A DNA stretch of 64,000 nt from a virus. Position numbers and translations under genes: made by a program. Under the pieces are notes generated by a model, which did no database searches, had not been told where the DNA came from, and worked only from the letters and a program-made list of their open reading frames with translations. This document shows positions 3-64,000 of this stretch, in pieces; position 1 is the stretch's first letter; the number at the start of each line of letters is the position of its first letter. The stretch lies in the IMG/VR virus record IMGVR_UViG_3300007345_000027, positions 1 to 64,000 of that record. One strand, given 5' to 3'.

Positions 3-1472
3 GGAACACAAGGATCTCAAGGATTCCAGGGAACTCAAGGGTCACAGGGATTCCAGGGAACACAAGGATCTCAAGGATTCCAGGGTCTTCAAGGAAGAAC
101 TGGACCTGTTGCTGGATCTGCATATCAAGTAATTTATAAAGATGGTTCCAATGAACCAGTAGGATCTAATACCTTACAATTTGATGGACAAAATTTATCT
201 GTTTCTGGTGAAGTAAACGCTCTTGGTGGATTTAACCTTGGTATTCATTCTGGTGGGACAGCGATTACAACTGGTATAATTACTGCCGTAAACTTTATTG
301 GAACTGGTAATACAGTATCTTATAATAGTTCTTCAAAAGTTGTTGATGTTTCTATTTCTGGTGGTGATAAATGGATTCTTGTAGAAGATGATTACACAGC
401 AACTGTCGGAGACCAAATTGTTGCTGATACTATAGGGAATCCCGAATCTACTTCTAATCCCTTTACAATAACTTTACCATCAAACCCTGTTTTTGGTGAT
501 ACTGTTACAATAGCTGATGGTCATGATTGGAGTCTTGCAAATCTAACAGTTACATCTTCTGATAATATAGAATCATCATCATCTGATAGAACTGAAGGTA
601 CTCAACATGCATTAGTTAAGTATGTATATCTTAATTCTAATGTTGGGTGGAATAGATATACTCAATATGAGGCTCTTCAGGGTGCTCAGGGACTTCAAGG
701 TTTACAGGGATTACAAGGGACTCAGGGTTTACAGGGAATACAAGGTAATCAAGGAACTCAGGGAAGACAGGGTCTTCAAGGAACTCAAGGAATAGGTAAT
801 CAAGGAACTCAAGGTCTTCAGGGTTATACTGGTGATTTTGGTTCTCAAGGTGCTCAGGGACTTCAAGGTTTACAGGGTCTTCAGGGACTTCAAGGATCAA
901 ATGCTGGGCAGGGTGTTCAGGGTGTTCAGGGTATTACTGGTTATATCGCTGATGGTGGTGTTGAGAGAACAGTTACATCTGTGATTATTGGTGCTGCAGC
1001 AACTGATAGAATATCCGCTAATTATACTGTTGGATATGTTGATGTCTTCTTGAATGGATCTAAATTGGATTCAAGTGAATATACTGCAACTAATGGTTCA
1101 TCTATCATCTTTACTGAGGATCCTGTTGAGAATGATATTATTGAAACAATCGCTTATGAGAGAGTAAGTCTTGGGTCAATCATTGGTATTACTACATCAT
1201 CGGCATATACTTTAGTTTCTACTGATGCTGGTAAATTTGTTAATACTAGTGATGATGTAATCATACCTCAAAATGTTTTTAATGAGGGGGATATAATTTC
1301 CGTTTATAATAATTCTGGAGCTACTTTTGATGTTGTGCAAGGTTCTGGAACCACTGTTTATCTTGGTGGAGTTGGAAGTACGGGAAATAAAACACTTTCA
1401 GCAAAAGGTCTTGCAACAATTTTATGTGTTGGAACTAATAAATTTGTAATTGTTGGTGCGGGGGTAGTATAA
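3..1472 (+). CDS. collagen-like tail fibre protein, 5'-truncated by window edge
   Basis: Frame starting at nt 3 is open to TAA at 1472 (the 981..1472 track ORF is only its C-terminus); Gly-X-Gln repeats plus fibre domains shared with 10138..10872 (YTA..GDQ..ADT..FTITLP) and 2500..5427 (GY.DV.LNG..TATNG). Confidence 0.85.
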   Translation, partial: GTQGSQGFQGTQGSQGFQGTQGSQGFQGLQGRTGPVAGSAYQVIYKDGSNEPVGSNTLQFDGQNLSVSGEVNALGGFNLGIHSGGTAITTGIITAVNFIGTGNTVSYNSSSKVVDVSISGGDKWILVEDDYTATVGDQIVADTIGNPESTSNPFTITLPSNPVFGDTVTIADGHDWSLANLTVTSSDNIESSSSDRTEGTQHALVKYVYLNSNVGWNRYTQYEALQGAQGLQGLQGLQGTQGLQGIQGNQGTQGRQGLQGTQGIGNQGTQGLQGYTGDFGSQGAQGLQGLQGLQGLQGSNAGQGVQGVQGITGYIADGGVERTVTSVIIGAAATDRISANYTVGYVDVFLNGSKLDSSEYTATNGSSIIFTEDPVENDIIETIAYERVSLGSIIGITTSSAYTLVSTDAGKFVNTSDDVIIPQNVFNEGDIISVYNNSGATFDVVQGSGTTVYLGGVGSTGNKTLSAKGLATILCVGTNKFVIVGAGVV

Positions 1473-30702: not shown

Positions 30703-30727
30703 GTACTTACATTAAAAAGTTACAATA

Positions 30728-31025: not shown

Positions 31026-31040
31026 TCACCCTCTTTTTTT
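31017..31040 (+). terminator. intrinsic terminator
   Basis: gagggt-tgatc-accctc followed by T7. Confidence 0.75.
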
Positions 31041-31071
31041 GTGCTATACTCTATAATAATGAAAATAATTT

Positions 31072-32034: not shown

Positions 32035-32037
32035 ATA
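32030..32037 (+). promoter_or_regulatory. T4-type late promoter TATAAATA
   Basis: Exact consensus upstream of 32061. Confidence 0.6.
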
Positions 32038-32060
32038 TTTTCGTATTGAAATTATAAAGA

Positions 32061-32306: not shown

Positions 32307-32315
32307 TATTCTAGT

Positions 32316-33772: not shown

Positions 33773-34452
33773 TTTTTAACCATGTTGATATTGATCTTCC
33801 ATCTCTTGAAAGAGAAACAATTGATGGAGTAAGATTTTATAAAGTTCCTGATGAAGAAGAACTCCTCCGACTGGTCTCCATTACATCTGTTACCAGTCAC
33901 AGAAATAGAGAATTTTTTGCTAAGTGGAGAAAACGGGTAGGGGAAGAAAAAGCAGAACGCATCACAAAACGTGCCACAAGTCGTGGTACAGATATGCATA
34001 CTCTTGTAGAGTATTTTCTAAAGAATGAAGAATTGCCAGAAGTACAACCTATTTCTGACTTTTTATTTAAAATCTCTAAGCAAACTCTTAAAAATATAAA
34101 TAATATATACACCCTTGAAGGTTCGCTATATAGTAAACAATTAGGGATTGCGGGAACTGTTGATTGTATTGCAGAATACAACGGCGAATTAGCAATAATC
34201 GACTTTAAGACATCTGCTAAACCGAAACCACGGGAGTGGATTGATCACTATTTTGTACAGTGCATGGCATATGGTTGTATGCTGTACGAACTGACTGGTA
34301 TTTCAGTCAAAAAACTTGTAATTATTATGGCTTGCGAAAATGGAGAATGCGTCGTCTATGAAGAACGAGACAAATCAAAGTACATCAAACTTCTCACAGA
34401 ATATATTGGAGAGTTTGTTAGAGATAAATTGGAATTCTATGGAACAAAATAA
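33769..34452 (+). CDS. PD-(D/E)XK exonuclease (Cas4-like / exonuclease A)
   Basis: S.TSV, RGT.MH, AGTVDC, IIDFKTS, Q..AY motifs. Confidence 0.85.
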   Translation: MIFNHVDIDLPSLERETIDGVRFYKVPDEEELLRLVSITSVTSHRNREFFAKWRKRVGEEKAERITKRATSRGTDMHTLVEYFLKNEELPEVQPISDFLFKISKQTLKNINNIYTLEGSLYSKQLGIAGTVDCIAEYNGELAIIDFKTSAKPKPREWIDHYFVQCMAYGCMLYELTGISVKKLVIIMACENGECVVYEERDKSKYIKLLTEYIGEFVRDKLEFYGTK

Positions 34453-34699
34453 AGATCTAAAAAACGTGTTAGAAAACAAGTTTTTAACACCATCAAAATT
34501 TGCAATAGAAATTGAAAAAATTGTTGCAAAAGAAAAGATGAATTATATTGATGCAATATGTTTCTATTGTGAGACTAACAATATTGAAGTTGATTCAATT
34601 ACAAAACTTGTATCAAAACCTCTAAAAGAAAAGTTAAAGTGGGATGCTATTCGTCTCAACTTTATGAAAAAAACATCGAGAGCTAAACTGCCACTATGA
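34439..34699 (+). CDS. gp33: late-promoter transcription co-activator gp33
   Basis: F...IE.....YIDAI..C...IE......LKEKL..A..LN; lies before gp59. Confidence 0.85.
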   Translation: MEQNKDLKNVLENKFLTPSKFAIEIEKIVAKEKMNYIDAICFYCETNNIEVDSITKLVSKPLKEKLKWDAIRLNFMKKTSRAKLPL

Positions 34700-35292
34700 T
34701 CGTGACTCCCTTTGAAACTTACCAACATTATTTGTCACTAAAAAATCACTTCACAAATCCAAAATACGACTTTTTCAAATACGGGGCAAAAACCCGTGCG
34801 AGTATTACTTCTTTCAATAAAAGAAAAGACAAGTATTGGTTTGAAAAAACCTCTCGTAAGTATTCTGATCAAGAAATTTTGGATTTTTTAGTATCTAATT
34901 TTGCTGCTGCCGATAACCCACAAAACCTATGGATTGGAGAAATTATCAATTCTGGCGAAAGAGTGTACGCCGATTGGATGAAACGTCGTCAGAGTTCAAC
35001 TTACTTGTTCAAAGAACAAAGCAACGAATTACTATCGAACAACGAATTAGAGAATCTCTTCAATTGTTCCAAGGGTCACCCAATTTTACTAAAAAAATTT
35101 CTTGGTGGAGAAATAAGTCTTGAAACATTCGTTATTTTTGAAAAAATTTTTGGTTTTTCAAAAAACTTTGATAAAAAATTAAAAGATCCTGTATGGGAAA
35201 CCGTAAGTTTAAAATTAAAAAAATATAATCCCTTCATAAATATTGATGTATTCAAATACAAGAAAATTTTGAGAGACCTGGTAGATGAGTGA
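34696..35292 (+). CDS. gp59: helicase loader gp59
   Basis: YLSLKNHF...YDFFKY, F.KRKD.Y.F, I.LET motifs. Confidence 0.9.
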   Translation: MIVTPFETYQHYLSLKNHFTNPKYDFFKYGAKTRASITSFNKRKDKYWFEKTSRKYSDQEILDFLVSNFAAADNPQNLWIGEIINSGERVYADWMKRRQSSTYLFKEQSNELLSNNELENLFNCSKGHPILLKKFLGGEISLETFVIFEKIFGFSKNFDKKLKDPVWETVSLKLKKYNPFINIDVFKYKKILRDLVDE

Positions 35293-47417: not shown

Positions 47418-47913
47418 TCCAGATTTTGTTGGAAAAGCACCATTAAAATGGTTCATAGGTCAAGTTCCCTTGGGACAAACAATTAATATTGAAAATCCTA
47501 AAGGGTGGGGTGATCGTGTTAAAGTTAGGATATTGGGTTATCACCCATCATTAGGTTCTGAACTTTCTGATGATGGGTTGGAATGGGCAGTGATCATGAG
47601 ATCAACTAGTCATGGATCTCTAAATAGAAAGAGTGTTGGAATAACTGGTGGTGAATGGGTTGTCGGAGTATTTTTAAATGATGATCCAGAAAAACTATTA
47701 CCTTTGATAGTAGGAGTTTTGGGGAGAAGTGATCCATCATACGAAATAACTGAAAGTGATCAAACATCGAAAAAAAGTGCAGAATTTAAAAAGACTAAAA
47801 ATTGGTATAAAAGTGTGCAACCAGCTCTGTATCATATGATTAGTGGAAAAAAACCTGGTGAAAAAAGAGAGCAAACACCATTTCGTACAAGTAACAGTTT
47901 TTTTAGAAAATAA
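47407..47913 (+). CDS. gp5: gp5 N-terminal OB-fold (baseplate spike) protein
   Basis: WFIGQV, RVKVRILGYH, L.WA, G.WV.G.F.....P...G motifs. Confidence 0.75.
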   Translation: MSFNPDFVGKAPLKWFIGQVPLGQTINIENPKGWGDRVKVRILGYHPSLGSELSDDGLEWAVIMRSTSHGSLNRKSVGITGGEWVVGVFLNDDPEKLLPLIVGVLGRSDPSYEITESDQTSKKSAEFKKTKNWYKSVQPALYHMISGKKPGEKREQTPFRTSNSFFRK

Positions 47914-50633: not shown

Positions 50634-51241
50634 CAACACCACCATCAAATCCAGCACCAGATTATACAATTGCAAATAATCCACATGCTTATGTTCATTG
50701 TGGTCCCATAGGACCAGGATCACAGGATGATGGTAGAGATTTTTGTATTATTACATCAACAAATAATCACTGTGTTTATCATAAAGATGGATCTAAAGTT
50801 GAACATATACAAGACGCATGGCACGAAGTTTCTGGTCATAGTATAGATGGAACAAAAAAAGAAGCTATTGCAAGATCTATCGTTGCCAAAAACGGTGATT
50901 TAATTATTAATGCTGAAAGAGGAAATATACATCTTAAAGCAAAAAATATTCATATCGAAACAACAGGTGAAAAAAATCAAGGAAATTTTTTAGTATCTTC
51001 AAATGGGCATGTAATCATAGCTTCAACAAAGGAAGTGCGTATTGCTGCATCTAGATTATGTCTAAATGGAACTAGTGGAGTAAATATAGTTACAGAAAAC
51101 TTTGTAAATGTAATGGGATTATTAGAACAATTTCCTCCTCAATCAATGACAAAATCGATTACATCATTACTTCAAGGAAATTGGGAATCTTTGTTAAAGG
51201 GTCTATCCCAGTCATGTGGATCTACAGGAACAGTAAAATAA
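50630..51241 (+). CDS. gp5 C-terminal beta-helix-like spike protein
   Basis: A.NGD..I.A..G.I.L.AKNI.I repeats; ATGA overlap. Confidence 0.55.
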   Translation: MTTPPSNPAPDYTIANNPHAYVHCGPIGPGSQDDGRDFCIITSTNNHCVYHKDGSKVEHIQDAWHEVSGHSIDGTKKEAIARSIVAKNGDLIINAERGNIHLKAKNIHIETTGEKNQGNFLVSSNGHVIIASTKEVRIAASRLCLNGTSGVNIVTENFVNVMGLLEQFPPQSMTKSITSLLQGNWESLLKGLSQSCGSTGTVK

Positions 51242-51252: not shown

Positions 51253-52140
51253 ATGTCATCAGCAAATTTTTCGGATATTTCGACAAGTTATTTAGAAGTT
51301 AAAGCACCAGTTGTTGGCGCTGCATTAAACATACCACAAGCATTCATCCCACCAGGAAGTGCAAACATATATCAATGTTTTGTCGGTTCTGGTATGAATA
51401 AAATTGTTAATGCAGCACTTAATGTGATGTCTAACACCACAAATCCAATAGCTGTTGAAGTTGTAGGACCATCTAATTTAACAGGTGTAGTTACTATTGT
51501 TGGCGCTACATCCGTAAATGGTGCTACTAGAATTGAGGGTCCTACCCTAGATGTAGTTTCAGTCACAACAACCGTTAAAAGTACAAAAACTGCAATAGCT
51601 GGAACTAAGGGACTTACTTTAACTGGTAATAGTGTTCTTATGAATGGTAGTGGTAAAGTTGATATATCTGCACCTACTATCAATTTGAATGGTGCTGTTC
51701 TTGTTGCTGGAGTTGGTAATCTTCCATTAGCTTTAAATAGTAAAAAAACCTTTGATATAAAGCACCCCAATAAACCAAATTATAGGTTAAGACATGCATG
51801 TGTTGAGGGTCCAGAAGCTGCAATATACGTTCGAGGAAAGTTGTTAAATAGTAATGTAATTACTCTCCCCGATTATTGGGATGGTTTAGTTGACAAAGAG
51901 TCTATCACAGTAAATCTTACTCAAATAGGGCATAGTCAAGATCTTTATGTTGAAAAAATTGAATGGGGTAAAAATATTATTGTAAAATCTGGAAATGGAA
52001 CAACAATTAATTGTCATTATCAAGTTTGGGCTGATAGATTGGGTAAAATGATAATAGAGTACGAAGGTACCACACCAGATGATTACCCAGGTGATAATTC
52101 GGAATATTCAATCGCTGGTTGGACATACGACAAGAAATAA
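51253..52140 (+). CDS. spike/fibre protein with C-terminal intramolecular-chaperone-like domain
   Basis: K.FDI.HP...LRHAC.EGPE...Y.RG..LP.YW motif after beta-helix repeats. Confidence 0.7.
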   Translation: MSSANFSDISTSYLEVKAPVVGAALNIPQAFIPPGSANIYQCFVGSGMNKIVNAALNVMSNTTNPIAVEVVGPSNLTGVVTIVGATSVNGATRIEGPTLDVVSVTTTVKSTKTAIAGTKGLTLTGNSVLMNGSGKVDISAPTINLNGAVLVAGVGNLPLALNSKKTFDIKHPNKPNYRLRHACVEGPEAAIYVRGKLLNSNVITLPDYWDGLVDKESITVNLTQIGHSQDLYVEKIEWGKNIIVKSGNGTTINCHYQVWADRLGKMIIEYEGTTPDDYPGDNSEYSIAGWTYDKK

Positions 52141-52143: not shown

Positions 52144-55100
52144 ATGGCAAGAATTAATATCTACAGTACAAATCAACCGCCTGAGCAACTATCTCTTTTA
52201 GAGATAGATGATCTTAAGGTTGGAACAGGTGTTACCGTATATGGTAATACTGGTATTGTTAGTGCAGTTAGTGTCTATGCTCAAAATTATTATGGTGATG
52301 GATCTAACTTAGAGAACGTTGGTATAGAAGTTAGTGCAATTGATACATTAACTATAGACCCTGAAACTGGGAATGGTGTAATTAGTAATCAGATTACAAA
52401 TGTAAAAGCAATACGTTTTGATACTGATTCTGGATTTGCAGTATCTGATTTGGGTGATGGTGCTGTACAAATTGCCCTTAATAGTACGTTTAAATATTGG
52501 GAAGTTGATGGGCAAGATACATTAGAAGCCGAAGGTCTTGATACTGTAAAAATAGTAGCTGGTGTTGGTATTGCACTTACAACACAAAACATTGATGGTG
52601 ATAAAAGATTAACGATTACTGGAACCGTAGGTGCTCAAGGTCTCCAAGGTACTTTAAGTAATTTTCAAGGAACACAAGGATTACAGGGATTACAAGGACA
52701 TCAGGGATTACAGGGAAATCAAGGATTACAAGGTAATCAAGGAACACAGGGAAATCAAGGACTACAAGGTGTACTTGGTAATTTTCAAGGAACCCAAGGA
52801 CTCCAAGGTGCTCAAGGTTTACAAGGTTCTCAGGGGTCACAAGGATTTCAAGGACTCCAAGGTGCTCAAGGACTCCAAGGTGCTCAGGGTGTACTTAGCA
52901 ATTTCCAAGGACTTCAAGGTTCAAAAGGATCTCAAGGCGCACAAGGATTCCAAGGTGTTCAGGGTTTAATTGGTGAGCAAGGTAATAAAGGTGATAGTGG
53001 TGGAACAATATGGAGATTTAATACTTCTACAACACAGGGAGATCCTGGTAATGGATACTTTAGATTTGATAATAATACTCCAGCAGATATAACAAAAATA
53101 TACATTGATAATATTGATAGTGTAGGTAAGAATCAAACTGCATGGTTTGATGATTGGGAAATTTTAGGATCAAAACCAACTGTAGGATATTTGCATTTAC
53201 AATCTTCTTCCCCAGACGGAACTATTTCTTATATTTTTGAAGTTACTGATGTAAATGCTGGTACTCAGGGTGCTTTTAATACTTATTATACACTTACTGT
53301 CAATCTTTTAACAGATACTACTAGTACAATAGGTGCAAATACAAAGATTGCATTTTTCTTCGCTCCTATTGGAAGGCAAGGTGTTCAAGGTTTACAAGGT
53401 TTACAAGGATTCCAAGGTGTCCAGAGTGCTCAAGGTCTTCAAGGACTTCAAGGACTTCAGGGTCCTTTAAGTAATTTTCAAGGAACTCAAGGATTACAAG
53501 GTTTACAAGGTGTCCAGAGTGCTCAAGGTCTTCAAGGACTTCAAGGACTTCAAGGTGTAATTAGCAATTTTCAAGGAACTCAAGGATTACAAGGTAATCA
53601 AGGAACACAGGGAAATCAAGGACTACAAGGTGTAGTTGGTAATTTCCAAGGAACTCAAGGTTTACAAGGTGTACAATCTAATCAAGGAACTCAGGGACTC
53701 CAAGGAGTTCAAGGACTCCAAGGACTTCAAGGACTTCAGGGTCCTTTAAGTAATTTTCAAGGAACTCAGGGTGTTGTTGGATTTCCTAATGGTGTACCTT
53801 ATGAATTTGATAGTGAAACTCAGAGACCACTTGATCCAGGTGGAATTAGTAATATTTTATATCGAGTCGCAAATGGAACACTAAAATTTAATAATCTTTC
53901 AATTGCATCAGTTAATAGAATTTTTATTTCGGTACAAGATTATTATGGAGTATCAAGATCTAATTGGATTAACGGGTGGGATGATCCTTCATTCACAAAC
54001 ACTATAAAAGGATCTTTAACTATTTCATCAGCGGAAACTAACAATCCTGGAGCTGTTATATTTTATGTTACTCAAGTTGAAGATGTAACAATAAATGGAT
54101 TTTCTGGTAGTCATAGATTCTTAGAGGTTTATGTTACTTATCTTTCTGGTTCTTCTAGTTTTGATGATACAGAGAGATTATCTATCTCATTTAACCCTAC
54201 TGGTGTTCAAGGTCTTCAGGGTGTTCAAGGTCCTTTAAGTAATTTTCAAGGAACACAAGGATTACAGGGATTACAAGGACATCAGGGTGTTCAAGGATTA
54301 CAAGGACTTCAAGGTAATCTAAGTAATTTCCAAGGAACACAGGGAAATCAGGGTGTTCAAGGATTACAAGGACTTCAAGGATTACAAGGACTTCAAGGTT
54401 TACAGGGTTTCCAAGGCACTCAAGGATGTCAAGGATTTCAAGGACTTCAAGGTTTACAGGGAATGCAAGGACTTCAGGGTCCTTTAAGTAATTTTCAAGG
54501 TGTTCAAGGATCTCAAGGATTCCAAGGTCTCCAAGGATTACAAGGTTTACAAGGTGTCCAGAGTGCTCAAGGTCTTCAAGGTCTTCAGGGTCTTCAAGGT
54601 CTTCAGGGTCTTCAAGGTAATATAAGTAATTTCCAAGGTACACAAGGAATGCAAGGACTTCAGGGTCCTTTAAGTAATTTTCAAGGTGTTCAAGGATCTC
54701 AAGGATTCCAAGGTGTTCAAGGTCCTTTAAGTAATTTTCAAGGAACTCAAGGTCTCCAAGGTCTCCAAGGATTACAAGGTATACAAGGTAATCAAGGAAC
54801 TCAAGGTGTCCAAGGTCTCCAAGGATTACAGGGATTACAAGGTAATCAAGGTACTCAAGGACTTCAAGGTTTACAGGGATTACAGGGATTACAAGGACTT
54901 CAAGGATTACAAGGACTTCAAGGTTTACAGGGATTACAAGGTTTACAGGGATTACAAGGTGTAATTGGCAATTTTCAAGGTACTCAAGGACTACAAGGAA
55001 ATCAGGGTGTTCAAGGTCTTCAAGGTTTACAGGGAGTTCAATCTACACAAGGAACACAGGGTCTTCAGGGACCTCAGGGTGTTCAAGGTACTCAAGGTAC

Positions 55101-58100
55101 TCAGGGTGTTCAAGGTGTTCAAGGTGTTCAAGGATTACAAGGAAATCAGGGTACCCAAGGTCTCCAAGGTTTACAGGGTGTAAGATCGAATTTCCAAGGA
55201 ACTCAAGGCACTCAAGGTTTACAGGGACCCCAAGGTACTCAGGGTTTACAAGGAGTTCAAGGAACTCAAGGTTTACAGGGACATCAAGGAACGCAAGGTT
55301 TACAGGGAGTTCAGGGAACACAAGGACTCCAAGGTATTCAAGGACTCCAGGGAACGCAAGGTACTCAAGGTTTACAAGGAACACAGGGGACACAGGGATT
55401 CCAGGGAGTTCAGGGCACTCAAGGATTACAAGGAGTTCAAGGAATCCAAGGTACTCAAGGACTTCAAGGATTGCAAGGTCCTAAGGGAATAACACAATTT
55501 GAAGTTGATGATACCGATGAAGATGTAGTTCTTTATCCAGTGATGACCAACGTTACTGTTGGATCAACTGAAGTGATAGAGGTATCTAGTGAAAAATTAG
55601 TTTTCAATCCATCCTCTGGTAGTATTGGTATTGGAACGAGTGCAATTACAAATACACTGACTGTAGTTGGAACAGCAACAGCAACAAATTATTTTGGTAA
55701 TGGTGATACTCTAAGTGGAATTGTTACTCAAATTGTTCCAGGAATTGGTATTGATATTTTTGAAACTCAAGTTCCAGGAAAAGGTAAAGTAGAAGTTCAA
55801 TCATATAAACCAGTTGGAAGAACGATATTTGTTTCTATAAATGGTGATGATAATAATACTGGTCTTGCAGAAAATCATCCAAAGCGAACTATAAAAGGAG
55901 CTTCATCTGTTGCATTAACAAATGATACTATAAAAGTATTTCCAGGCACATATGTTGAGGATAATCCTGTTATTCTGAATAAAATTGTTTCGATTGAAGG
56001 AACAGAACTTAGAAATTGTATTATTACACCAAAAAATCCAAATCAAGATTTGATTTATGTTAATAATGGATGTCATATAACTGATATTAGCTTTATCGGT
56101 CCAGAAATGACTGATGGAGCTGCAGTGGTAGCATTACAACCTTTATTGGGGGTTGCTACGGATAGATTCTTTGATGCTGCAAGAATGATTAGATTGAATT
56201 TAGATTATATTGCGAAAGAATCTGTAGGATTCTTAACTAGTGGATATAGTGGATTTGCTGGAAATCATAGAGAGCAAGATGCTGCAAGATTAATTGATTT
56301 AAATATTGACTATATTGCTGCAGAAACAGTAGGATTTTTAACCACTGCATACGTTGGTTCCGCTGGTCAACCATTTGTTGTTACTAATTCTTCAGGTATT
56401 TCTACAGATCCATCTAATTGTGAAGATGATATTAAAGATATTTTGCGTTCTTTATCTTATGATTTGAAAGCTGGAAGTAATAAAAAATGTGTTGGTGCAG
56501 GATTATCTTATTATGATGATGGAGGAACACTTCTCCACATTATTGGAAACGATGAAAATGGAAATAGTATTCAAGATGCGACTATATCCGCTATACAATA
56601 TGCTGTTGGTGTTACAACATACATTATAGATAACAAAGATTATAAATCTCAACCTGGTGTTACAACTTATAGTCAACTTGCACAAAATGTTTCTTACTCA
56701 CCAATTTTAGTTGGTGGCGGTTGCACTGCAGTTAGAGAAAAAATAAGAGAACGTGTTGGTATTATTACTAATATTATTGATAATTTTAATTATGCTACTG
56801 GTATTACAACAATTCATGGAGTAAGATTAGAAAGTGCTGATTGTGCCGATGATGTTGGTGATATATGGAGATCTGTAATATATGATATTACTAGAGGTGG
56901 TAACTCTAAGTGTGTTGGTGCTGGTAAATCATATTATGATGATGATTGGAACTTAGCAGTTGGTACATTAGACAATGAAAAAGGTGAAATTGAACAGACA
57001 ATTGCAACTTTAGACTATTCATTTGATGTTGCTAGAGCAATTGTTAATAACTCTACTTGGGGAGGAACTGTAGTTGGATTTGGAACAACTGTTGTATCTG
57101 CAGATTATGATTATAGTACTGGCATTACTACAATAACTGCTACAGATCATGGATTATTAAAAGATGATGCTGTCAAAATTGAGAATCTGACATATTCATG
57201 TACATCTGGATCTTCTGGAGTTCCTGTTGGTGTTATAACAGCTTCTTACACTAACAGCACAGGAATTACAACAATTCAAACTTCTGGTTATCTACCAATA
57301 TCCTCTGGTGATCGAGTTAAAATTGAAGGATTAACTTTCGAGTGTGTTGATGGAACGGACGTTTATCCAGATGGAAATCAAGGATATGAATTTACAGTTC
57401 AAGATGTTATTAGTTCTTCATCTAGTAGCACTACATTTATAGTAAATACTGGATCTACAACTTATGCAAATCCTCATACTTACGTGAGTGGTGGACAAGT
57501 ATCCAAACTTTATACACCAGTATTTACTGTAGATGATGCAGATTATGATTATTTAACTGGAATAACTACGGTAACAGTTACTGGAACTGGTCCAACAGGT
57601 CCATATCTTTTCATTGAACCAGGAAAGAGAGTAAAACTTGGAGGATTAGTTTTTAGTTGTGATCAAGGTCAATCAGTTTATCCATCTGGAAATAATGGAT
57701 ATGATTTTGAAGTTATATCTACAACTGATGATCGATATGTTGATGCTGCAAATTTAATAAAAGCAAATAGAACTGAAATTATTGATAAATCTTTAGCTTC
57801 GATTGCAATATCTCATCCAGATTTTTATTATCCTAATGATGTACAAACAACAAGATTTTCTAGATTTAAAGATGCTTATAGATTAATACAGCAAAACAGA
57901 ACGGAGATCATTAATAGTGCTTGGAATACAATGCAGGCTGGAGAAAATCCTGCAGATTCTTCAACAGAAACTAAGTGTAAACGTGACATTGGTTATTTTG
58001 TAGACGCAGTTTCAACTGATGTATTTACTGGTGGAAATAGTTATTCAATATCATTTGTTAAACTCTATTTTAATAATGGAACACCAATTTCAAATGGATT

Positions 58101-60858
58101 GGTTGGTGAAGAAGCATCATCTATAGATGCTTTTAATGCCGCTAGAGATTTAATGAAGCAGGCAATTACTAATCAACTTACGGTAACAGATTTAACTATT
58201 ACTGCTGATCCAGTGACTGGAGATAATCAGTCATCAGATTCATGTGCTAATGTACAAAGTGCAATTGACACTTTAACTTCTTTAGTTGTTGTAATAATTG
58301 ATGCAGGAAATCTTGATCTCTTAAAAACAACTTATGTTAATGCAGGTATTTTTGTTGCTGGAGAAAATAAGTGTCGTAGAGACATCGGATTTATTGTAGA
58401 TGCTCTCGAAAAGGATATTAGATATGGGACTAATAAATTTATTAGAGAATCTACCAGAGCATATTTTGATGCAAATGGTGCACCAATTACAAATGGATTA
58501 CTTGGAGAGGAGTCAGAATCTATAACGGCATTTAATAGTATTCGCGATTATGCTAAGAAAGCAATTACAAATCAATTAAATGTAAAAGATTTAACGATTA
58601 CAGCAGATCCTCTGACAGGTGATAATCAAGATCCTAGTTCTTGTGCAGATGTGCAAACGAATATTGATAATATTATTGCAATTATAACCACAGTAATTAG
58701 TGACGGTAATTTATCAAATTACCCAGCGTTATACGTTTCTAATAAAGTTGAAGTAAATACAGGAACTACAACAAAAGCACACAATTATGTAAATGGTGGA
58801 ACGTTAACTTCCAATTACACATCTGAAATTTATCCTGATGGAACTTTTGGTTATATTTTCCCAGTTAAAGATGTTCTTAGTGATGATGTATTTGAAGTAG
58901 TAACTGGCAAAACAGTATTACCTCATACATATGAAAGTGGTGGAACAGTTAAAAAGGTTAGTAACTTCCAATCTGAGTTCACTCAAGTAAAAGATTTATC
59001 TATTCAATCTGATTATAAGTCTGGATTTAACAATACGATTAATTCTTGTACTGATGTTGCATCAGCAATGAGGTCATGTGTTGGGGTTGTCACCAATATA
59101 GTTGGTTTAGGATCAACAGCATTCTCAACAATTGGATTCAATACAACATATCCTGGAAATCGTGGAGAAGGATTTGATCATCTCTCAGGAATTTCTAGTG
59201 CTGTTTACGAAAAAGAATCTGGAAAAACAACTCTTAAAGCATTAGGATATACACCTAACGTTGGTGATTTGGTTGAAATTAGAGACCTGTTATTCTCATG
59301 TTCCTCTGGTGGATCTATTTCAACAACAAGATTCCCATCTGGATATTTTGGATATGAGTTCTATGTAACTAAGGTACATGGTGATAATTCTTTTGATGTA
59401 TATACTGGTGTTAGTACTATTCCACACACATATGTTTCTGATGGGTATGTTGTTAATCGTTCAATGAACATTACACAAGCAGATTACACACATACTACAG
59501 GAATAGTTACAATTACTTCACCTGGAATTAAGTTAAGATCAGGTGATTTGGTTACTTTGAGAGATATGGAATTTGCATGTTCTAGTGGAGCGGCTACTAC
59601 AACAATATATCCTTCTGGAAATAACGGTTATGCATTTAGAGTATTAAGTGCAGATAATGAAAATGATACTTTTACGGTAAATGTCGGAACTTCTAGTGTA
59701 GATCATACTTATGTTGTTGGCGGAACTGTTACACCACCATATTCTAGAGGGGTTGGTAATATTGTTCAAGGACCTTATACTAGAAACTGTACAAACTTTA
59801 TTCCAAATTCTATCGGAATGAAAGTTGATGGATTTGAGGCAGAACCTGGTGATTTACCAGATATTGGTGTTACAGGAACGATGAGTGTTGATTCATATAC
59901 ACAGTATAACCAAGGAGGAATTGGAGTTTCTATTACAAATGGAGCATATTCTCAGTTAGTTTCTATATTTACCATTTGTAACGATACAGCAATTTTCACC
60001 GCTTCAGGTGGGCAATGTGACTTAACAAACTCAAACTCCTCATTTGGTAGATTGGGATTGGTTGCTGATGGTGTCGGTGATGAAACATCTAAATCAATTT
60101 ATAGATATACTGGCATTTCTTCTGGAATAGCAGAAGTTGAGCAAGATACTATAACAGTTAGTGGAGTTGGTAGTTATCGTCCTTATGATGGACAAGCATT
60201 ATATTTTGGAGAGTTGTATTATACAGTTCAAAAAATTGAAGTTACTGATGGTGGTTCTGGATACATAGCACCTCCAATAGTTACAATTTCAGATCCAGAA
60301 GGACCAAATGGAATTGTTTGTGAGGGATCACCAAATATTGATGCAAGTGGAAGAGTAATCTCAGTAGATATTATTAGTGCTGGTAGTCAATATTTGACAA
60401 ATCCAACTGTTACGTTTACTGGTGGTGGAGGAGTCGGTGCAGCTGCAACTACCATAATTTATCCATTATATTATTCTATTGAAAGTGCAACAAAACCTGT
60501 TGCAGGAATCTCAACTATTGTTCTAAACCAGAATCTAAATAACACAGTGAGTGCTGGAACAACAGTCTATTTTAGTAGAGTAAGTTTACAAATTACATCA
60601 TCACACTCTTTTGAATGGGTTGGTGCTGGAAATAATATTTTCTCAGCAAAACCTGGATTGGGTGGAGTTGTTATAACTGAAAATGAAGTTGTAATGAACA
60701 ATGGTGGTCAAGTTGTTTATACCAGTACGGATCAAGCTGGTAACTTTAAAATTGGTGATCAGTTTACAATTAATCAACTTACTGGAACAATTAGTGGTAG
60801 AGCATTCAGTCAAAGTCTGTTAAATACAGTAACACCTTTAATTCTTGCAATAGGATAA
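52144..60858 (+). CDS. giant (2904 aa) collagen-like tail fibre with pectin-lyase-like beta-helix and four helical CxxD repeat domains
   Basis: Long Gly-X-Gln tracts; FVS..GDD.N.G.....TI..A...DTI.V.PG.Y.E beta-helix start; C-terminus PLILAIG. Confidence 0.85.
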   Translation: MARINIYSTNQPPEQLSLLEIDDLKVGTGVTVYGNTGIVSAVSVYAQNYYGDGSNLENVGIEVSAIDTLTIDPETGNGVISNQITNVKAIRFDTDSGFAVSDLGDGAVQIALNSTFKYWEVDGQDTLEAEGLDTVKIVAGVGIALTTQNIDGDKRLTITGTVGAQGLQGTLSNFQGTQGLQGLQGHQGLQGNQGLQGNQGTQGNQGLQGVLGNFQGTQGLQGAQGLQGSQGSQGFQGLQGAQGLQGAQGVLSNFQGLQGSKGSQGAQGFQGVQGLIGEQGNKGDSGGTIWRFNTSTTQGDPGNGYFRFDNNTPADITKIYIDNIDSVGKNQTAWFDDWEILGSKPTVGYLHLQSSSPDGTISYIFEVTDVNAGTQGAFNTYYTLTVNLLTDTTSTIGANTKIAFFFAPIGRQGVQGLQGLQGFQGVQSAQGLQGLQGLQGPLSNFQGTQGLQGLQGVQSAQGLQGLQGLQGVISNFQGTQGLQGNQGTQGNQGLQGVVGNFQGTQGLQGVQSNQGTQGLQGVQGLQGLQGLQGPLSNFQGTQGVVGFPNGVPYEFDSETQRPLDPGGISNILYRVANGTLKFNNLSIASVNRIFISVQDYYGVSRSNWINGWDDPSFTNTIKGSLTISSAETNNPGAVIFYVTQVEDVTINGFSGSHRFLEVYVTYLSGSSSFDDTERLSISFNPTGVQGLQGVQGPLSNFQGTQGLQGLQGHQGVQGLQGLQGNLSNFQGTQGNQGVQGLQGLQGLQGLQGLQGFQGTQGCQGFQGLQGLQGMQGLQGPLSNFQGVQGSQGFQGLQGLQGLQGVQSAQGLQGLQGLQGLQGLQGNISNFQGTQGMQGLQGPLSNFQGVQGSQGFQGVQGPLSNFQGTQGLQGLQGLQGIQGNQGTQGVQGLQGLQGLQGNQGTQGLQGLQGLQGLQGLQGLQGLQGLQGLQGLQGLQGVIGNFQGTQGLQGNQGVQGLQGLQGVQSTQGTQGLQGPQGVQGTQGTQGVQGVQGVQGLQGNQGTQGLQGLQGVRSNFQGTQGTQGLQGPQGTQGLQGVQGTQGLQGHQGTQGLQGVQGTQGLQGIQGLQGTQGTQGLQGTQGTQGFQGVQGTQGLQGVQGIQGTQGLQGLQGPKGITQFEVDDTDEDVVLYPVMTNVTVGSTEVIEVSSEKLVFNPSSGSIGIGTSAITNTLTVVGTATATNYFGNGDTLSGIVTQIVPGIGIDIFETQVPGKGKVEVQSYKPVGRTIFVSINGDDNNTGLAENHPKRTIKGASSVALTNDTIKVFPGTYVEDNPVILNKIVSIEGTELRNCIITPKNPNQDLIYVNNGCHITDISFIGPEMTDGAAVVALQPLLGVATDRFFDAARMIRLNLDYIAKESVGFLTSGYSGFAGNHREQDAARLIDLNIDYIAAETVGFLTTAYVGSAGQPFVVTNSSGISTDPSNCEDDIKDILRSLSYDLKAGSNKKCVGAGLSYYDDGGTLLHIIGNDENGNSIQDATISAIQYAVGVTTYIIDNKDYKSQPGVTTYSQLAQNVSYSPILVGGGCTAVREKIRERVGIITNIIDNFNYATGITTIHGVRLESADCADDVGDIWRSVIYDITRGGNSKCVGAGKSYYDDDWNLAVGTLDNEKGEIEQTIATLDYSFDVARAIVNNSTWGGTVVGFGTTVVSADYDYSTGITTITATDHGLLKDDAVKIENLTYSCTSGSSGVPVGVITASYTNSTGITTIQTSGYLPISSGDRVKIEGLTFECVDGTDVYPDGNQGYEFTVQDVISSSSSSTTFIVNTGSTTYANPHTYVSGGQVSKLYTPVFTVDDADYDYLTGITTVTVTGTGPTGPYLFIEPGKRVKLGGLVFSCDQGQSVYPSGNNGYDFEVISTTDDRYVDAANLIKANRTEIIDKSLASIAISHPDFYYPNDVQTTRFSRFKDAYRLIQQNRTEIINSAWNTMQAGENPADSSTETKCKRDIGYFVDAVSTDVFTGGNSYSISFVKLYFNNGTPISNGLVGEEASSIDAFNAARDLMKQAITNQLTVTDLTITADPVTGDNQSSDSCANVQSAIDTLTSLVVVIIDAGNLDLLKTTYVNAGIFVAGENKCRRDIGFIVDALEKDIRYGTNKFIRESTRAYFDANGAPITNGLLGEESESITAFNSIRDYAKKAITNQLNVKDLTITADPLTGDNQDPSSCADVQTNIDNIIAIITTVISDGNLSNYPALYVSNKVEVNTGTTTKAHNYVNGGTLTSNYTSEIYPDGTFGYIFPVKDVLSDDVFEVVTGKTVLPHTYESGGTVKKVSNFQSEFTQVKDLSIQSDYKSGFNNTINSCTDVASAMRSCVGVVTNIVGLGSTAFSTIGFNTTYPGNRGEGFDHLSGISSAVYEKESGKTTLKALGYTPNVGDLVEIRDLLFSCSSGGSISTTRFPSGYFGYEFYVTKVHGDNSFDVYTGVSTIPHTYVSDGYVVNRSMNITQADYTHTTGIVTITSPGIKLRSGDLVTLRDMEFACSSGAATTTIYPSGNNGYAFRVLSADNENDTFTVNVGTSSVDHTYVVGGTVTPPYSRGVGNIVQGPYTRNCTNFIPNSIGMKVDGFEAEPGDLPDIGVTGTMSVDSYTQYNQGGIGVSITNGAYSQLVSIFTICNDTAIFTASGGQCDLTNSNSSFGRLGLVADGVGDETSKSIYRYTGISSGIAEVEQDTITVSGVGSYRPYDGQALYFGELYYTVQKIEVTDGGSGYIAPPIVTISDPEGPNGIVCEGSPNIDASGRVISVDIISAGSQYLTNPTVTFTGGGGVGAAATTIIYPLYYSIESATKPVAGISTIVLNQNLNNTVSAGTTVYFSRVSLQITSSHSFEWVGAGNNIFSAKPGLGGVVITENEVVMNNGGQVVYTSTDQAGNFKIGDQFTINQLTGTISGRAFSQSLLNTVTPLILAIG

Positions 60859-61226: not shown

Positions 61227-64000
61227 ATGGACCTTAATTCTAAAAGAGTTAAAAAACTTGCGAGAACGGGAATAACATCCGATAGATATCAATTTCTGGG
61301 ATTAAATCAAGCAGAACCAGATCTTGGAGATCCTTTAGTTGGAGTTTCTTCGATAGTCAATAAACCCATACCTGCTGGCGATCAGTATATGGTTGCTGCT
61401 GTCGATGGTTATGCTGGGGAAAGATATTGGATAAGAGCAACTGAAACACAAGGTGCTGGAATACAAGGTACTCAGGGACTGCAAGGTGCTTTGAGCAATT
61501 TTCAAGGTACTCAAGGTACTCAAGGATTGCAAGGTAATCAAGGGACACAAGGTTTACAGGGAAGACAAGGATTACAGGGTCCTTTAGGAAATTTTCAAGG
61601 TGTTCAAGGATTACAAGGACTTCAAGGATTACAAGGACTTCAAGGTTTACAAGGACTTCAAGGATTACAGGGTGTTCAAGGATCCCAAGGATTCCAAGGC
61701 GTTCAAGGTTTACAAGGACTTCAAGGATTACAGGGTGTTCAAGGATTACAAGGTAATCAAGGAACACAAGGTTTACAAGGAATGCAAGGACTTCAGGGTC
61801 CTTTAAGTAATTTTCAAGGAACACAGGGATCCCAAGGATTTCAAGGTGTTCAAGGTTTTCAAGGTATACAGGGATCTCAAGGTCTTCAAGGAATGCAGGG
61901 ATTCCAGGGAACTCAAGGATTTCAAGGTTTGCAAGGTTTGCAAGGCGTTCAAGGATTACAAGGTTCGCAAGGATTCCAAGGATTACAAGGATTACAAGGA
62001 AGAAGTCACCAAGGTGTTCAAGGTTTACAAGGAACGGAAGGATTCCAAGGTGCTCAAGGTATTCAAGGTATTCAAGGGTTGCAAGGAATCCAGGGTGTGC
62101 TTGGTAATTTTCAGGGCACTCAAGGGACACAAGGTTTACAGGGAATGCAAGGACTTCAGGGTCCTTTAAGTAATTTTCAAGGTGTTCAAGGATCTCAAGG
62201 ATTCCAAGGTGTTCAAGGTTTACAAGGACTTCAGGGAATTCAAGGAGGATTATCCCCTCAAGGTTCTCAGGGTGTTCAAGGAACTCAAGGTCCTCAAGGA
62301 ATACAAGGGTATAGTGGAATTCAGGGACCCCAAGGTACTCAGGGTTTACAAGGAGTTCAAGGTGTACAGGGTGTTCAAGGTAGAGGTATAACTGGTTCAA
62401 AAGGTGATCAAGGTACTCAAGGTGTACAGGGTACTCAAGGATTACAAGGCAGGAGAGGTTCACAAGGAATGCAGGGTGTCGAGGGTGAGCAGGGCACTCA
62501 GGGAACACAGGGAAGGCAGGGTGTTCAAGGCAGAATAGGTTTAGGTGGTATCAAGGGTGACACTGGTTCACAAGGTGCACAAGGTGTTAAAGGATTAACA
62601 TCTACAACACCTTATACATTGATGAATTTTGACATTCCAGGAGATTTGGTTGTTAATACTCAAACTGTTAGTAATAATTTAGTTGATGGTGTATCTTTTA
62701 CCACTGTAGGTAATATAAGTGGCATGAGTAACACATCTAATGTTACATCTGGAGCATCAATTGCATTATTTTCAGGGACAACTGGAGAAAGATGGGTAAG
62801 AACAAGTAGAAAAGTTTATTTTGCCACCATATCTAAGATATTTTTCTATGTCAATCAAGGTGGAAGTGGATGGGGTGAACAACCAGATTCTGGTGAAGGT
62901 TTATCACTCCAATATTCGTTCAACGGCACTAACTGGACTAACATTTTTACAATTCAACCATCAGATATAACAAGAAATACGTGGGTTCTTCAAGAAGTAG
63001 ATGTACCAACTGCAATACAAAATTATGAAGGTGCATATGTTAGATTCAAACAAGACAATAGTAGTGGAACTGCCTTTGATAACTGGGCTATAAGTGCATT
63101 AGCAATACAAATCACTTCTCCAAATACTGGTGGTATAGGTGGTGGAGGTGGTGGATCGGGAACTCTTATACTCGATGCAACAAATACCTCTAATGTTATG
63201 AGAGGCACTGTATATCAAAGATCATTAACTGATGCATTTTCTGATTTTGGAAATGTTTCATCAACACCATTACCTTGGATACAATCCAATGATTACGTTT
63301 TTCAATTTGGTACGTCTGGAGGTAGTATTGGTTCTACTGAAACGAGAACTATCACTACTAGAAATAAAATATTTTTAGCATCTTCAGAATTGGTTGAATT
63401 CTGGTCTCTTCCTGGTGGAGTAGGAGGTTGGGGTGAACAACCAGATGATTTGGAAGAAGTAATACTGGAATATTCTTATAATGGCACTACGGGTTGGAAT
63501 GAGATTGGGGAGAGGGGTAGGTTTAATAGCTCTTCCCAAAATGGTCTTAGATGGATAAGAAATGTATTTAAAGTTCCCGATGGTGCTAAAAACTCTGGTG
63601 GAGTTTTCATAAGACTAAAGCAATCATCTAGTGGTGCTAACATCGACCACTACCTGGTGAGTTCAGTTTACATAAGATCTTATTCTTCCAATACTAATAG
63701 TTCCTTTGCCGCTTTAGATTTTTCAAATTATGCTAGTGCTTATTTTCATAACGCATGGCCAACTACTATTGCCCAATATAACACAATAGGTGCAGTGAAT
63801 TTACCAACATCATCAACTGATGGTTTGATAAATCAATACACTCCAATATGTGTTTTTGATGAAGGTTCCCCTAATATTAGTGCAGATAGAAAAGTTATTA
63901 CACCAAATAGAATATACTTAAAAAATTCCAATACATTTTCATTCCATGTATGTAGAAATTGGTATGAAGGTCCAGATAATGGTGAAGAATTATTCCTTTA
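61227..64000 (+). CDS. collagen-like fibre with reelin-like repeats, 3'-truncated by window edge
   Basis: ATG 61227 ([10 protein letters not shown]...[16 protein letters not shown]) open to the window end; Gly-X-Gln tract ~61450-62590; absent from the track because it has no stop in the window. Confidence 0.85.

What the first reader, a model, noticed from the sequence alone, without database searches (positions are those of the whole stretch)
56161..59110. Four phycobiliprotein-like (globin-fold) domains with bilin-site-like cysteines in the giant tail fibre
Seen: KCKRDIGYFVDAVSTDVFTGG (Cys nt 57976), KCRRDIGFIV (58372), CEDDIKDILRSLSYDLKAG (56419) and CADDVGDIWRSVIYD (56842). Each has a matching R..DAA..I..N...I helix and a distal Cys helix (SCANVQSAI, SCADVQ, GCTAV, SCTDVASAM). 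Known (recalled): phycocyanin alpha KCARDIGYYLRMVTY...GG, beta CLRDMEIILRYVTYA..AG around bilin-binding Cys84/Asp87, beta GDCSAL at Cys155, and the R..A...I..NA..I helix. Many cyanomyoviruses also encode bilin reductases and lyases. Inference: the fibre displays phycobiliprotein-fold domains that might be chromophorylated (photoprotection, light-gated adsorption, mimicry), or the Cys pairs may simply form disulfides.
Basis: partly seen in the sequence, partly recalled or inferred. Interest (0 to 1): 0.85.

Follow-up and report, generated by a model that had tools for sequence, protein, structure and literature searches.

The report
Phycobiliprotein-fold modules in cyanophage fibre
A giant tail or baseplate fibre protein of a T4-like cyanobacterial virus contains four modules that are true relatives of the host's light-harvesting phycobiliproteins and keep the pigment-attachment residues, so it can now be tested whether the virus particle carries a bilin pigment and senses light; pigment binding has not been shown.

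Summary
All quoted motifs and cysteines lie at the stated coordinates in one 2904-aa ORF (52144-60858, +), a collagen-like fibre gene next to a gp5-like baseplate hub gene.

- **Fold:** units D1 and D3 are complete phycobiliprotein (PBP) folds. AlphaFold models match PBP beta chains at Z 14-17 and rmsd 2.3-2.6 A over 131-155 residues. An unbiased search of 48,161 chains ranks PBPs 1-8.
- **Sequence:** D3 passes Pfam PF00502's own cut-off. A profile of 524 phage units matches a PBP profile at 95% probability (P 2.4e-8; reversed control P 0.13-0.36).
- **Partial units:** D2 and D4 are paralogues with helices E-H only. D2 is split by a ~640-aa insertion that holds D3 and D4.
- **Attachment site:** the bilin triad Cys-x-Arg-Asp is kept in 94% of 565 distinct unit motifs. 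The second Cys falls in register with beta-Cys153/158.
- **Distribution:** among isolated phages only cyanophages have the unit. Some carry cpeT and pcyA directly upstream. P-HM1, P-HM2 and S-PM2 (light-dependent adsorption) have units; P-SSM2 and P-SSP7 do not.

Chromophore attachment remains untested (about 50%). The scan has noted the same feature on at least 23 other genomes. I found no paper describing it.

The parts
52144..60858 (+). Giant virion fibre ORF (2904 aa), P0001
   Evidence: Single open frame. PHROG tail-fibre families down to E 1e-259, Pfam Collagen E 7.6e-78. Flanked upstream by a gp5-like baseplate hub/lysozyme ORF (47913-50633) and downstream by another collagen-like fibre ORF (61227-63998+).
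52630..55692 (+). Collagen-like G-x-Q repeat shaft with two globular inserts (aa ~163-1183)
   Evidence: Pfam PF01391, 11 stretches; visible in the translation.
56161..56787 (+). Unit D1 (aa 1340-1548): complete PBP fold of the C-x-[DE]-D subtype. Two helical hairpins, then helices E, F, G, H. Site-1 Cys1426 (nt 56419-56421), site-2 Cys1527 (nt 56722-56724).
   Evidence: AF2 model m61c9e8830f88, pLDDT 76.9. VIA Z 14-15.6, rmsd 2.6 A over 152 aa against PBP beta chains, model 23..211 to chain 20..177. C91 and C192 are invariant in 31 homologues.
56806..57078 (+). Unit D2, first part (aa 1555-1645): helices E, F, G; site-1 Cys1567 (nt 56842-56844)
   Evidence: 38% identical to D1 helices E-G, E 1e-18. 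Helices 229-249, 253-260 and 278-299 in the model.
57079..57720 (+). Beta-rich repeat modules (aa 1646-1859), first part of the insertion that splits D2
   Evidence: Translation. The single-unit relative L216 lacks the whole stretch aa ~1548-2273.
57721..58323 (+). Unit D3 (aa 1860-2060): complete PBP fold with K-C-K-R-D. Site-1 Cys1945 (nt 57976-57978), site-2 Cys2034 (nt 58243-58245).
   Evidence: Pfam PF00502 24.5 bits, above GA 22.2. AF2 model m808a76f98ea1, pLDDT 89.4, pTM 0.88. VIA Z 15-17, rmsd 2.3-2.5 A over 131-155 aa, model 17..194 to chain 7..177. PBPs take ranks 1-8 of 48,161 chains.
58339..58743 (+). Unit D4 (aa 2066-2200): helices E-H only, K-C-R-R-D. Site-1 Cys2077 (nt 58372-58374), site-2 Cys2167 (nt 58642-58644).
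   Evidence: 53% identical to D3 helices E-H, E 1e-46. Model helices 213-235, 239-246, 264-282 and 309-328 repeat the spacing of D3, with Cys308 immediately before the last helix. C218, R220 and D221 are invariant in 32 homologues.
58744..58989 (+). Beta-rich module (aa 2201-2282), end of the insertion
   Evidence: Translation; comparison with L216.
58990..59118 (+). Orphan helix H with Cys2302 (nt 59047-59049), aa 2283-2325: inferred to complete unit D2 (nested architecture)
   Evidence: Contiguous residues 231-509 of the single-unit relatives L216 and L214 align to window aa 2274-2553 at 51-54% identity. Their N-terminal parts align to aa 1236-1547. The motif matches the helix H consensus of the D1-type family.

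Best explanation
**Shown.** The fibre protein carries four modules descended from light-harvesting phycobiliproteins. D1 and D3 are complete PBP folds. D2 and D4 keep helices E-H. D3 and D4, with beta-modules, are inserted inside D2. D3 and D4 keep the full chromophore triad Cys-x-Arg-Asp of PBP position 84-87. All four units keep a second Cys just before helix H, in register with beta-Cys153 (PC) / Cys158 (PE).

**Inferred.** The fibre is folded in the cyanobacterial cytoplasm, where free bilins and lyases are present. At least the CXRD units there take up a bilin on the site-1 Cys. This could be autocatalytic, as shown for CXRD-bearing BBAG globins, or use host S/U- and T-type lyases or the phage's own CpeT. 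The released virion would then carry a few dozen covalently bound bilins on its baseplate fibres.

**More speculative.** Light absorbed by these bilins changes the fibre's conformation and gates adsorption.

**Sub-probabilities.** PBP homology and fold 0.95. Covalent bilin on at least some units 0.5. Light-gated adsorption through these units 0.25. The overall confidence given (0.5) is that of the bilin-binding step.
For: **Fold**
- VIA Z 15-17 (D3) and 14-15.6 (D1), covering nearly the whole PBP chain.
- Unbiased ranking: PBPs first, then sensor globins and photoglobins, then haemoglobins.
- Foldseek's top ~50 hits are almost all PBPs.

**Homology**
- PF00502 above its cut-off.
- hhalign Prob 94-95%, P 1.6e-7 to 2.4e-8, 95-125 columns, with clean reversed controls.

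**Site conservation**
- Cys 98%, Arg 96%, Asp 99% over 524 non-redundant units that are otherwise only ~28-50% identical.
- 530 of 565 distinct motifs keep all three residues.
- Homologue L055 has lost all three together.
- Site-2 Cys is invariant among close relatives. It aligns to beta-Cys153 in low-mact hhalign and by the end register of the superpositions.

**Precedent**
- The CXRD motif is the PBP bilin site. CXRD-bearing BBAG globins self-attach bilins without lyases (PMC10151467).

**Distribution**
- 355 and 193 phage records are hit out of 50,697, all of them cyanophages or marine single-cell viruses.

**Gene neighbourhood**
- Sf-CH3 has cpeT, a 2OG oxygenase and pcyA ending 38 nt before the giant unit-bearing gene.
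- S-PM2 has cpeT 1.4 kb upstream.
- In all 6 IMG/VR contigs with cpeT, it lies within 10 kb upstream on the same strand.

**Phenotype**
- P-HM1, P-HM2 and S-PM2 have units and cpeT; P-SSM2 and P-SSP7 have neither.
- This matches published dark-adsorption behaviour, which is independent of host photosynthesis (PMC6628666).

**psbA-less phage contigs with an FDBR**
- 6 of 16 (6 of the 11 contigs of at least 100 kb) carry units, up to 22 in one ORF.
- One lineage has an adjacent haem oxygenase-FDBR pair.
Against: - No bilin, colour or fluorescence has been shown for any cyanophage particle, and no tool here can test binding.
- The window's own 97-kb record (46% complete) has no cpeT, haem oxygenase or FDBR.
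- Only 6 of 40 unit-bearing contigs have cpeT, and a 100%-complete one has none.
- P-SSM2 and Pelagibacter phage Mosig encode FDBRs but have no units. G045 has 11 units but no HO or FDBR.
- D1 and D2 have Asp/Glu in place of Arg86.
- Site-2 Cys is kept in only ~38% of all units.
- The cpeT neighbourhood lies in a known variable island after gp5, so it may reflect shared ancestry.
- The adsorption correlation rests on about four independent phages.
- The psbA-less comparison has no matched control set.
Confidence: 0.5

Rival explanations
1. Apo-protein scaffold. A PBP gene captured from a host was recruited as a rigid helical building block, or as a trimerisation or spacer module, of the fibre and no longer binds any chromophore. 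On this reading the Cys, Arg and Asp are kept for folding or inter-unit contacts.
For: - The units occur as long tandem arrays (up to 22-29 per protein) and nested inside one another, as structural repeats do.
- Many unit-bearing genomes lack phage lyase or bilin-synthesis genes.
- D1 and D2 have lost Arg86, and site 2 is poorly conserved overall.
- No pigmented cyanophage has been reported in the papers searched.
Against: - An unpaired Cys kept at 98%, together with Arg 96% and Asp 99%, across units that share under 30% identity is hard to explain by packing alone.
- In PBPs and BBAGs these three residues act only on the bilin (PMC10151467).
- One homologue lost all three together.
- The restriction to cyanophages and to FDBR-bearing phages is not predicted by this reading.
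Confidence: 0.35
2. The conserved cysteines serve other chemistry: inter-chain or inter-unit disulfides that lock the assembled trimeric fibre, or binding of a different ligand or metal.
For: - Virions live in oxidising sea water, where free thiols are unusual.
- D1 and D2 carry extra, variable Cys (aa 1449, 1590, 2312).
- The beta-modules between the units also hold a conserved Cys.
Against: - Within one unit the two Cys map to the two separate PBP chromophore sites, so an intradomain bond does not fit the fold (inference).
- Conservation of Arg and Asp beside the Cys is not explained.
- Site 2 is often absent while site 1 is kept, so a fixed Cys pair is not conserved.
Confidence: 0.1
3. Chance or convergent resemblance: an unrelated helical domain that happens to carry a C-x-R-D motif.
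For: - Single-sequence PDB E-values are weak (0.08-2), as are Foldseek E-values (~1e-2).
- The D1-type profile alone is not significant against PBPs (Prob 2-10%).
- Helical proteins often give middling Z-scores.
Against: - Pfam score above its gathering cut-off.
- hhalign 95% over 125 columns, with reversed controls at P 0.13-0.36.
- Z 15-17 at 2.3 A over the whole chain, and PBPs alone fill ranks 1-8 of 48,161 chains.
- Motif identity extends over C, R, D, I, G, Y, V, GG in 22 positions.
Confidence: 0.03

Closest known systems
Light-harvesting phycobiliprotein subunits (Pfam PF00502: CpcA/B, CpeA/B, ApcA/B, the ApcE bilin domain, cryptophyte beta chains)
   Same: - Same fold, helix for helix (Z 14-17).
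- Detectable sequence homology, best to CpcA around Cys84.
- The Cys-x-Arg-Asp triad at the start of helix E.
- A second Cys before helix H, in register with beta-Cys153/158.
   Different: - Not free 160-180-aa subunits but modules embedded in a 2904-aa collagen-like virion fibre.
- Tandem, truncated (E-H only) and nested copies.
- Duplicated A/B-type hairpins.
- A long loop with short strands between helices F and G.
- Conserved Asp at +14 and a GGN motif at +18-20.
- D1 and D2 have Asp/Glu in place of Arg86.
- No evidence for alpha-beta pairing, linker binding or a chromophore.
BBAGs (bilin biosynthesis-associated globins; PMC10151467)
   Same: - PBP paralogues outside the phycobilisome.
- Some carry CXRD and attach bilins without lyases.
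- They are encoded in genomes or clusters with haem oxygenase and an FDBR, as some unit-bearing phages are.
   Different: - The phage units match canonical PBPs far better (hhalign Prob 95%) than three putative cyanobacterial BBAG-like ORFs (Prob 10%). The identity of those ORFs as BBAGs is unverified.
- BBAGs are small cytoplasmic proteins, not virion modules.
Giant structural proteins of T4-like cyanophages (for example the S-PM2 3340- and 3780-aa proteins and the S-CAM1 tail protein, annotated short tail fibre, virion structural protein or baseplate wedge initiator)
   Same: - Direct homologues with 43-57% identity over D3-D4.
- The same predicted two-unit fold in BFVD (S-CAM1, TM 0.91, rmsd 1.5 A).
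- The same position after gp5.
   Different: None of these records or BFVD entries is annotated as phycobiliprotein-like. The number and nesting of the units differ between phages.

Membership tests
Phycobiliprotein (PF00502) | Globin-like PBP fold (helices X/Y, A, B, E, F, G, H) | tested here: met
   D3: Z 15-17, rmsd 2.3-2.5 A over 131-155 aa, chain 7..177 covered. D1: Z 14-15.6, rmsd 2.6 A over 152 aa. PBPs rank 1-8 in the unbiased search. D2 and D4 contain only helices E-H.
Phycobiliprotein (PF00502) | Sequence score above Pfam's gathering cut-off | tested here: met
   Met for D3 only: 24.5 bits against 22.2, and 26.7 bits in the six-frame search. D1, D2 and D4 alone give no Pfam hit. They are linked to D3 by BLAST and by fold.
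Phycobiliprotein (PF00502) | Cys84-x-Arg86-Asp87 chromophore triad | tested here: met
   D3 has KCKRD and D4 has KCRRD. Family-wide: Cys 98%, Arg 96%, Asp 99%. D1 (CEDD) and D2 (CADD) keep Cys and Asp but not Arg.
Phycobiliprotein (PF00502) | Second attachment Cys of beta subunits (beta-153/155/158) | tested here: inconclusive
   The Cys lies immediately before helix H in all four units. The register fits beta-Cys153 (PC) and Cys158 (PE) by the ends of the superpositions, and by low-confidence hhalign columns. It is kept in only 38% of all units.
Phycobiliprotein (PF00502) | Covalently bound bilin | not testable with these tools
   Needs expression with bilin synthesis, or mass spectrometry of virions.
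Phycobiliprotein (PF00502) | Free-standing ~160-180-aa subunit that forms alpha-beta monomers and (alpha-beta)3 discs in phycobilisomes | tested here: not met
   The units are internal modules of a 2904-aa virion protein. Oligomeric state was not modelled.
BBAG (bilin biosynthesis-associated globins) | Closer to BBAG lineages than to light-harvesting PBPs; genomic link to HO and FDBR | tested here: inconclusive
   hhalign gives Prob 10% against three putative BBAG-like ORFs, versus 95% against canonical PBPs. No verified BBAG sequences were at hand. An HO-FDBR pair is present in some unit-bearing psbA-less phages but is not adjacent to the unit gene.
Collagen-like phage tail fibre | G-x-y triple-helix repeats and tail-fibre family matches in a structural gene cluster | tested here: met
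   PF01391 E 7.6e-78. PHROG tail-fibre families. Neighbours are a gp5-like hub and a second collagen-like fibre ORF.

The most novel reading that the evidence does not exclude
Cyanomyovirus particles carry covalently bound bilins on phycobiliprotein-derived fibre modules that act as a virion photoreceptor. This would be the mechanism behind light-dependent adsorption. It would also be a main reason why phages encode CpeT and bilin reductases, including the unexplained haem oxygenase-PcyX/PcyA cassettes of phages that lack psbA.
Probability: 0.25. Interest if true: 0.95.

Novelty: new variant of a known kind. Interest (0 to 1): 0.82.

Why it matters
Three open questions about cyanophages become directly testable with a named target.

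1. **Why is adsorption of S-PM2, P-HM1 and P-HM2 light-dependent yet independent of host photosynthesis?** The literature only says 'host receptors and/or tail fibres' (PMC6628666).
2. **What is the substrate of phage CpeT, and why do phages of hosts with little or no phycobilisome carry bilin reductases?** In Sf-CH3, cpeT and pcyA lie directly in front of the unit-bearing gene.
3. **What do the haem oxygenase-FDBR cassettes of non-cyanobacterial or psbA-less phages serve?** PMC11480375 leaves this open and names bilin-binding globins as one possibility.

If bilins are attached, this would be the first photoreceptor built into a virus particle, and a new source of small self-labelling fluorescent modules. 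If they are not, it remains a clear case of a host antenna protein recruited as a structural repeat of a virion, with nested domain insertion.

Tried and rejected
- **Near-identical DNA in isolated phages:** only a 73-bp hit, so there is no close cultured relative.
- **The look-up of encoding contigs:** Context of the distant metagenomic proteins came from IMG/VR loci instead.
- **Own record (97 kb, 46% complete):** searched for CpeT, haem oxygenase and FDBR; none found. This is uninformative because the record is a fragment.
- **Intradomain disulfide:** could not be measured, because model coordinates are not exposed to scripts. I judged it unlikely from the fold mapping only.
- **Obligate cpeT co-occurrence:** rejected. 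6 of 40 contigs have it, and a complete genome lacks it.
- **'All phage FDBRs serve these units':** rejected. P-SSM2 and Mosig have FDBRs but no units.
- **Control set of large FDBR-less phage contigs:** failed. A GroEL query gave only 10 loci, and a single-protein FDBR query found only identical copies. The 6-of-16 figure therefore has no matched background.
- **D1-type profile alone against PBPs:** not significant.
- **Ten literature searches:** no description of PBP-like domains in phage virions. One search was badly designed and useless.
- **Gasper et al. 2017 on phage CpeT:** not held, so nothing is cited from it.
- **PDB entry 8u0f 'Bacterial fluorescent protein':** it is simply R-phycoerythrin.
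Full report
**Observation.** The window is the first 64 kb of a 97-kb IMG/VR virus record, estimated 46% complete, with low G+C. The finding lies in one ORF, 52144-60858 (+), 2904 aa. Its N-terminal 1180 residues are collagen-like G-x-Q repeats (Pfam PF01391, E 7.6e-78). The whole protein matches PHROG tail-fibre families. Upstream lies a gp5-like baseplate hub/lysozyme ORF; downstream lies a second collagen-like fibre ORF.

**Is it a phycobiliprotein fold?**
- *Sequence.* Excised unit D3 (aa 1860-2065) scores 24.5 bits (E 3e-5) against Pfam PF00502 'Phycobilisome protein', above the curated cut-off of 22.2. The six-frame genome search gives 26.7 bits. All PDB sequence hits are C-phycocyanin alpha chains or allophycocyanin derivatives, and they align K-C-x-R-D-I-G-Y onto Cys84.
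- *D3-D4 model.* An AlphaFold2 model of D3+D4, built on 32 homologues from IMG/VR, has pLDDT 89.4 and pTM 0.88. Foldseek's top ~50 PDB hits are almost all phycobiliproteins. VIA-align gives Z 15-17 and rmsd 2.3-2.5 A over 131-155 residues, with model 17..194 matching chain 7..177 of beta subunits.
- *Unbiased search.* Alignment to 48,161 cluster representatives puts PBP-family chains at ranks 1-8 (Z 12.4-15.6). Stressosome and sensor globins and bilin-binding photoglobins follow (Z 10-11), then haemoglobins (Z 6-8).
- *D1-D2 model.* The model has pLDDT 76.9. D1 matches PBP beta chains at Z 14-15.6, rmsd 2.6 A over 152 residues.
- *Profiles.* I built a profile of 524 non-redundant units from 150 cluster representatives. 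I compared it with profiles of CpcA/B and ApcA/B/D/F taken from cyanobacterial genomes. hhalign gives Prob 94-95%, P 1.6e-7 to 2.4e-8, over 95-125 columns. Reversed templates give P 0.13-0.36.

Homology to PBPs is therefore well supported.

**Anatomy.**
- D3 and D4 are 53% identical over helices E-H (E 1e-46). D1 and D2 are 38% identical (E 1e-18). D1 and D3 are 22% identical and colinear (E 1e-5).
- D1 and D3 each start with two copies of an A/B-like helical hairpin (R..DA..LI..N...I). D2 and D4 start directly at the Cys helix.
- D2 has no helix H of its own. The 'SCTDVASAM' helix at aa 2283-2325 supplies it. In the single-unit relatives L216 and L214, the residues that follow the unit align contiguously to window aa 2274-2553 (51-54% identity). 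Their N-terminal parts align to aa 1236-1547.
- So aa ~1548-2273 is a duplication plus insertion, and D2 is split by ~640 residues that contain beta-modules, D3 and D4. It is an inference, which I could not check, that the spare first hairpin of each pair completes the truncated unit.

**The chromophore site.**
- PBPs use a CXRD motif. The Cys forms the thioether to ring A, and Arg and Asp hydrogen-bond the bilin (PMC10151467).
- In the 524 units the three positions are Cys 98%, Arg 96% and Asp 99%, although the units are otherwise as little as 28% identical. Of 565 distinct motifs, 530 keep all three residues. A further 21 keep Cys and Asp but have lost Arg, mostly to Asp or Glu as in the D1/D2 subtype. 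Only 13 lack the Cys. One close homologue (L055) has lost all three together.
- The second Cys sits immediately before helix H in all four units. Counting back from the aligned C-termini places it on beta-Cys153 of phycocyanin and Cys158 of phycoerythrin. A near-global hhalign aligns it to the Cys of cpcB 'GDCS' with low confidence. It is invariant in close relatives but present in only ~38% of all units.
- Because the two Cys occupy two separate PBP chromophore sites, an intradomain disulfide does not fit the fold. This is an inference.

**Distribution and context.**
- *Isolates.* tblastn of D3-D4 against 50,697 phage records hits 355 records, and a distant multi-unit protein hits 193. All are Synechococcus or Prochlorococcus phages or marine single-cell viruses. 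BFVD holds the same predicted fold in S-CAM1, S-PM2, S-WAM2 and others, none annotated as PBP-like.
- *Gene neighbourhood.* In S-PM2, cpeT lies 1.4 kb upstream of a 3780-aa unit-bearing gene that follows gp5. In Sf-CH3 the order is gp5, cpeT, 2OG-Fe(II) oxygenase, pcyA, then, 38 nt later, the 4323-aa unit-bearing gene. In 6 of 40 unit-bearing IMG/VR contigs cpeT is present, always within 10 kb upstream on the same strand. The other 34 lack it, including one complete genome.
- *Adsorption phenotype.* P-HM1, P-HM2 and S-PM2 have units (4, 4 and 11 matches) and cpeT. P-SSM2 and the podovirus P-SSP7 have neither. P-HM1 and P-HM2 do not adsorb in the dark. S-PM2 adsorption is light-dependent and independent of host photosynthesis. 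P-SSM2 and P-SSP7 adsorb in the dark (PMC6628666). This agreement rests on about four independent phages.
- *psbA-less phages.* Thirteen contigs with multi-unit proteins lack psbA. One lineage among them carries an adjacent haem oxygenase-FDBR pair whose FDBR is nearest to that of Pelagibacter phage Mosig. Conversely, of 16 psbA-less contigs chosen only for carrying an FDBR, 6 have units, up to 22 in one 4187-aa ORF. The purpose of such cassettes is an open question (PMC11480375).
- *Counter-examples.* Mosig and P-SSM2 have FDBRs but no units. G045 has units but no FDBR. The window's own record has none of these genes. I could not assemble a matched control set.

**Interpretation.** What is shown: a host-type antenna protein fold, with its pigment-attachment residues under strong conservation, is built several times into a virion fibre. 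What is inferred: because the fibre folds in a bilin-containing cytoplasm, the CXRD units probably take up a bilin. I put this at about 0.5. The main rival is an apo structural repeat, at about 0.35. A role in light-gated adsorption is attractive but speculative, at about 0.25.

**Comparison with the known.** The units pass the fold, Pfam (D3 only) and CXRD tests of the PBP family. They fail the 'free alpha/beta subunit of a phycobilisome' test, and bilin binding is untestable here. They resemble canonical PBPs more than three putative cyanobacterial BBAG-like ORFs. I file them as a new variant of the PBP kind: a virion-embedded, tandem and nested PBP module.

**Prior notes.** The scan's own earlier notes report the same feature on at least 23 other genomes. 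Those are unchecked AI notes. I tested their leads on nesting, cpeT adjacency and light-dependent adsorption myself. None of my ten literature searches found a description of such domains in phage particles.

Noticed in passing
IMG/VR contigs behind L332 (G055), L377 (G061), L330, L346, L382, L386 and L290/L287/L313 (G044/G043/G046): Large phage contigs (116-353 kb) without psbA carry an FDBR and CXRD-globin units. G055 has 22 units in one 4187-aa ORF. The G043/G044/G046 lineage has an adjacent haem oxygenase-FDBR pair, a GroEL gene and a thymidylate synthase gene, plus an 11-unit 2778-aa ORF. The hosts are unknown.
   Followed up: partly
L322 (Synechococcus phage Sf-CH3, record 19578-34862): The gene order is cpeT, tRNAs, 2OG-Fe(II) oxygenase, pcyA, then 38 nt later the 4323-aa unit-bearing virion gene. 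The same 2OG oxygenase also precedes the giant gene in S-PM2.
   Followed up: partly
L264 (S-PM2 NC_006820, record 168556-173383): The RefSeq record lists 16 tRNA features inside the 3780-aa 'short tail fiber protein' CDS, all sharing its locus tag. This looks like an annotation or coordinate error.
   Followed up: no
window 57079-57720, 58744-58989 and 59150-59800: There are repeated beta-rich modules (Y-D-x-x-T-G-I-T-T ... L-x-F-x-C ... Y-P-x-G-x-x-G-Y-x-F) between and after the PBP units. Each has a conserved Cys. Their fold was not examined.
   Followed up: no
L055:1501-2076: A 67%-identical homologue of D3 reads S-K-Y-K-T-E-L-G where the others read K-C-K-R-D-x-G. It has lost Cys, Arg and Asp together.
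   Followed up: no
window 2500-5427, 5458-10119, 24343-27387, 61227-63998: The window holds further collagen-like fibre ORFs (975 aa, and 924+ aa running off the window), a 1553-aa virion structural protein and a 1014-aa protein with a glucosyltransferase domain. It is largely a structural gene block.
   Followed up: partly
window 50618-51241 and 51253-52140: Two ORFs of unknown function (only PHROG families of unknown function, no Pfam hit) sit between the gp5-like gene and the giant fibre gene. S-PM2 and Sf-CH3 carry cpeT, a 2OG oxygenase and pcyA in this position.
   Followed up: partly
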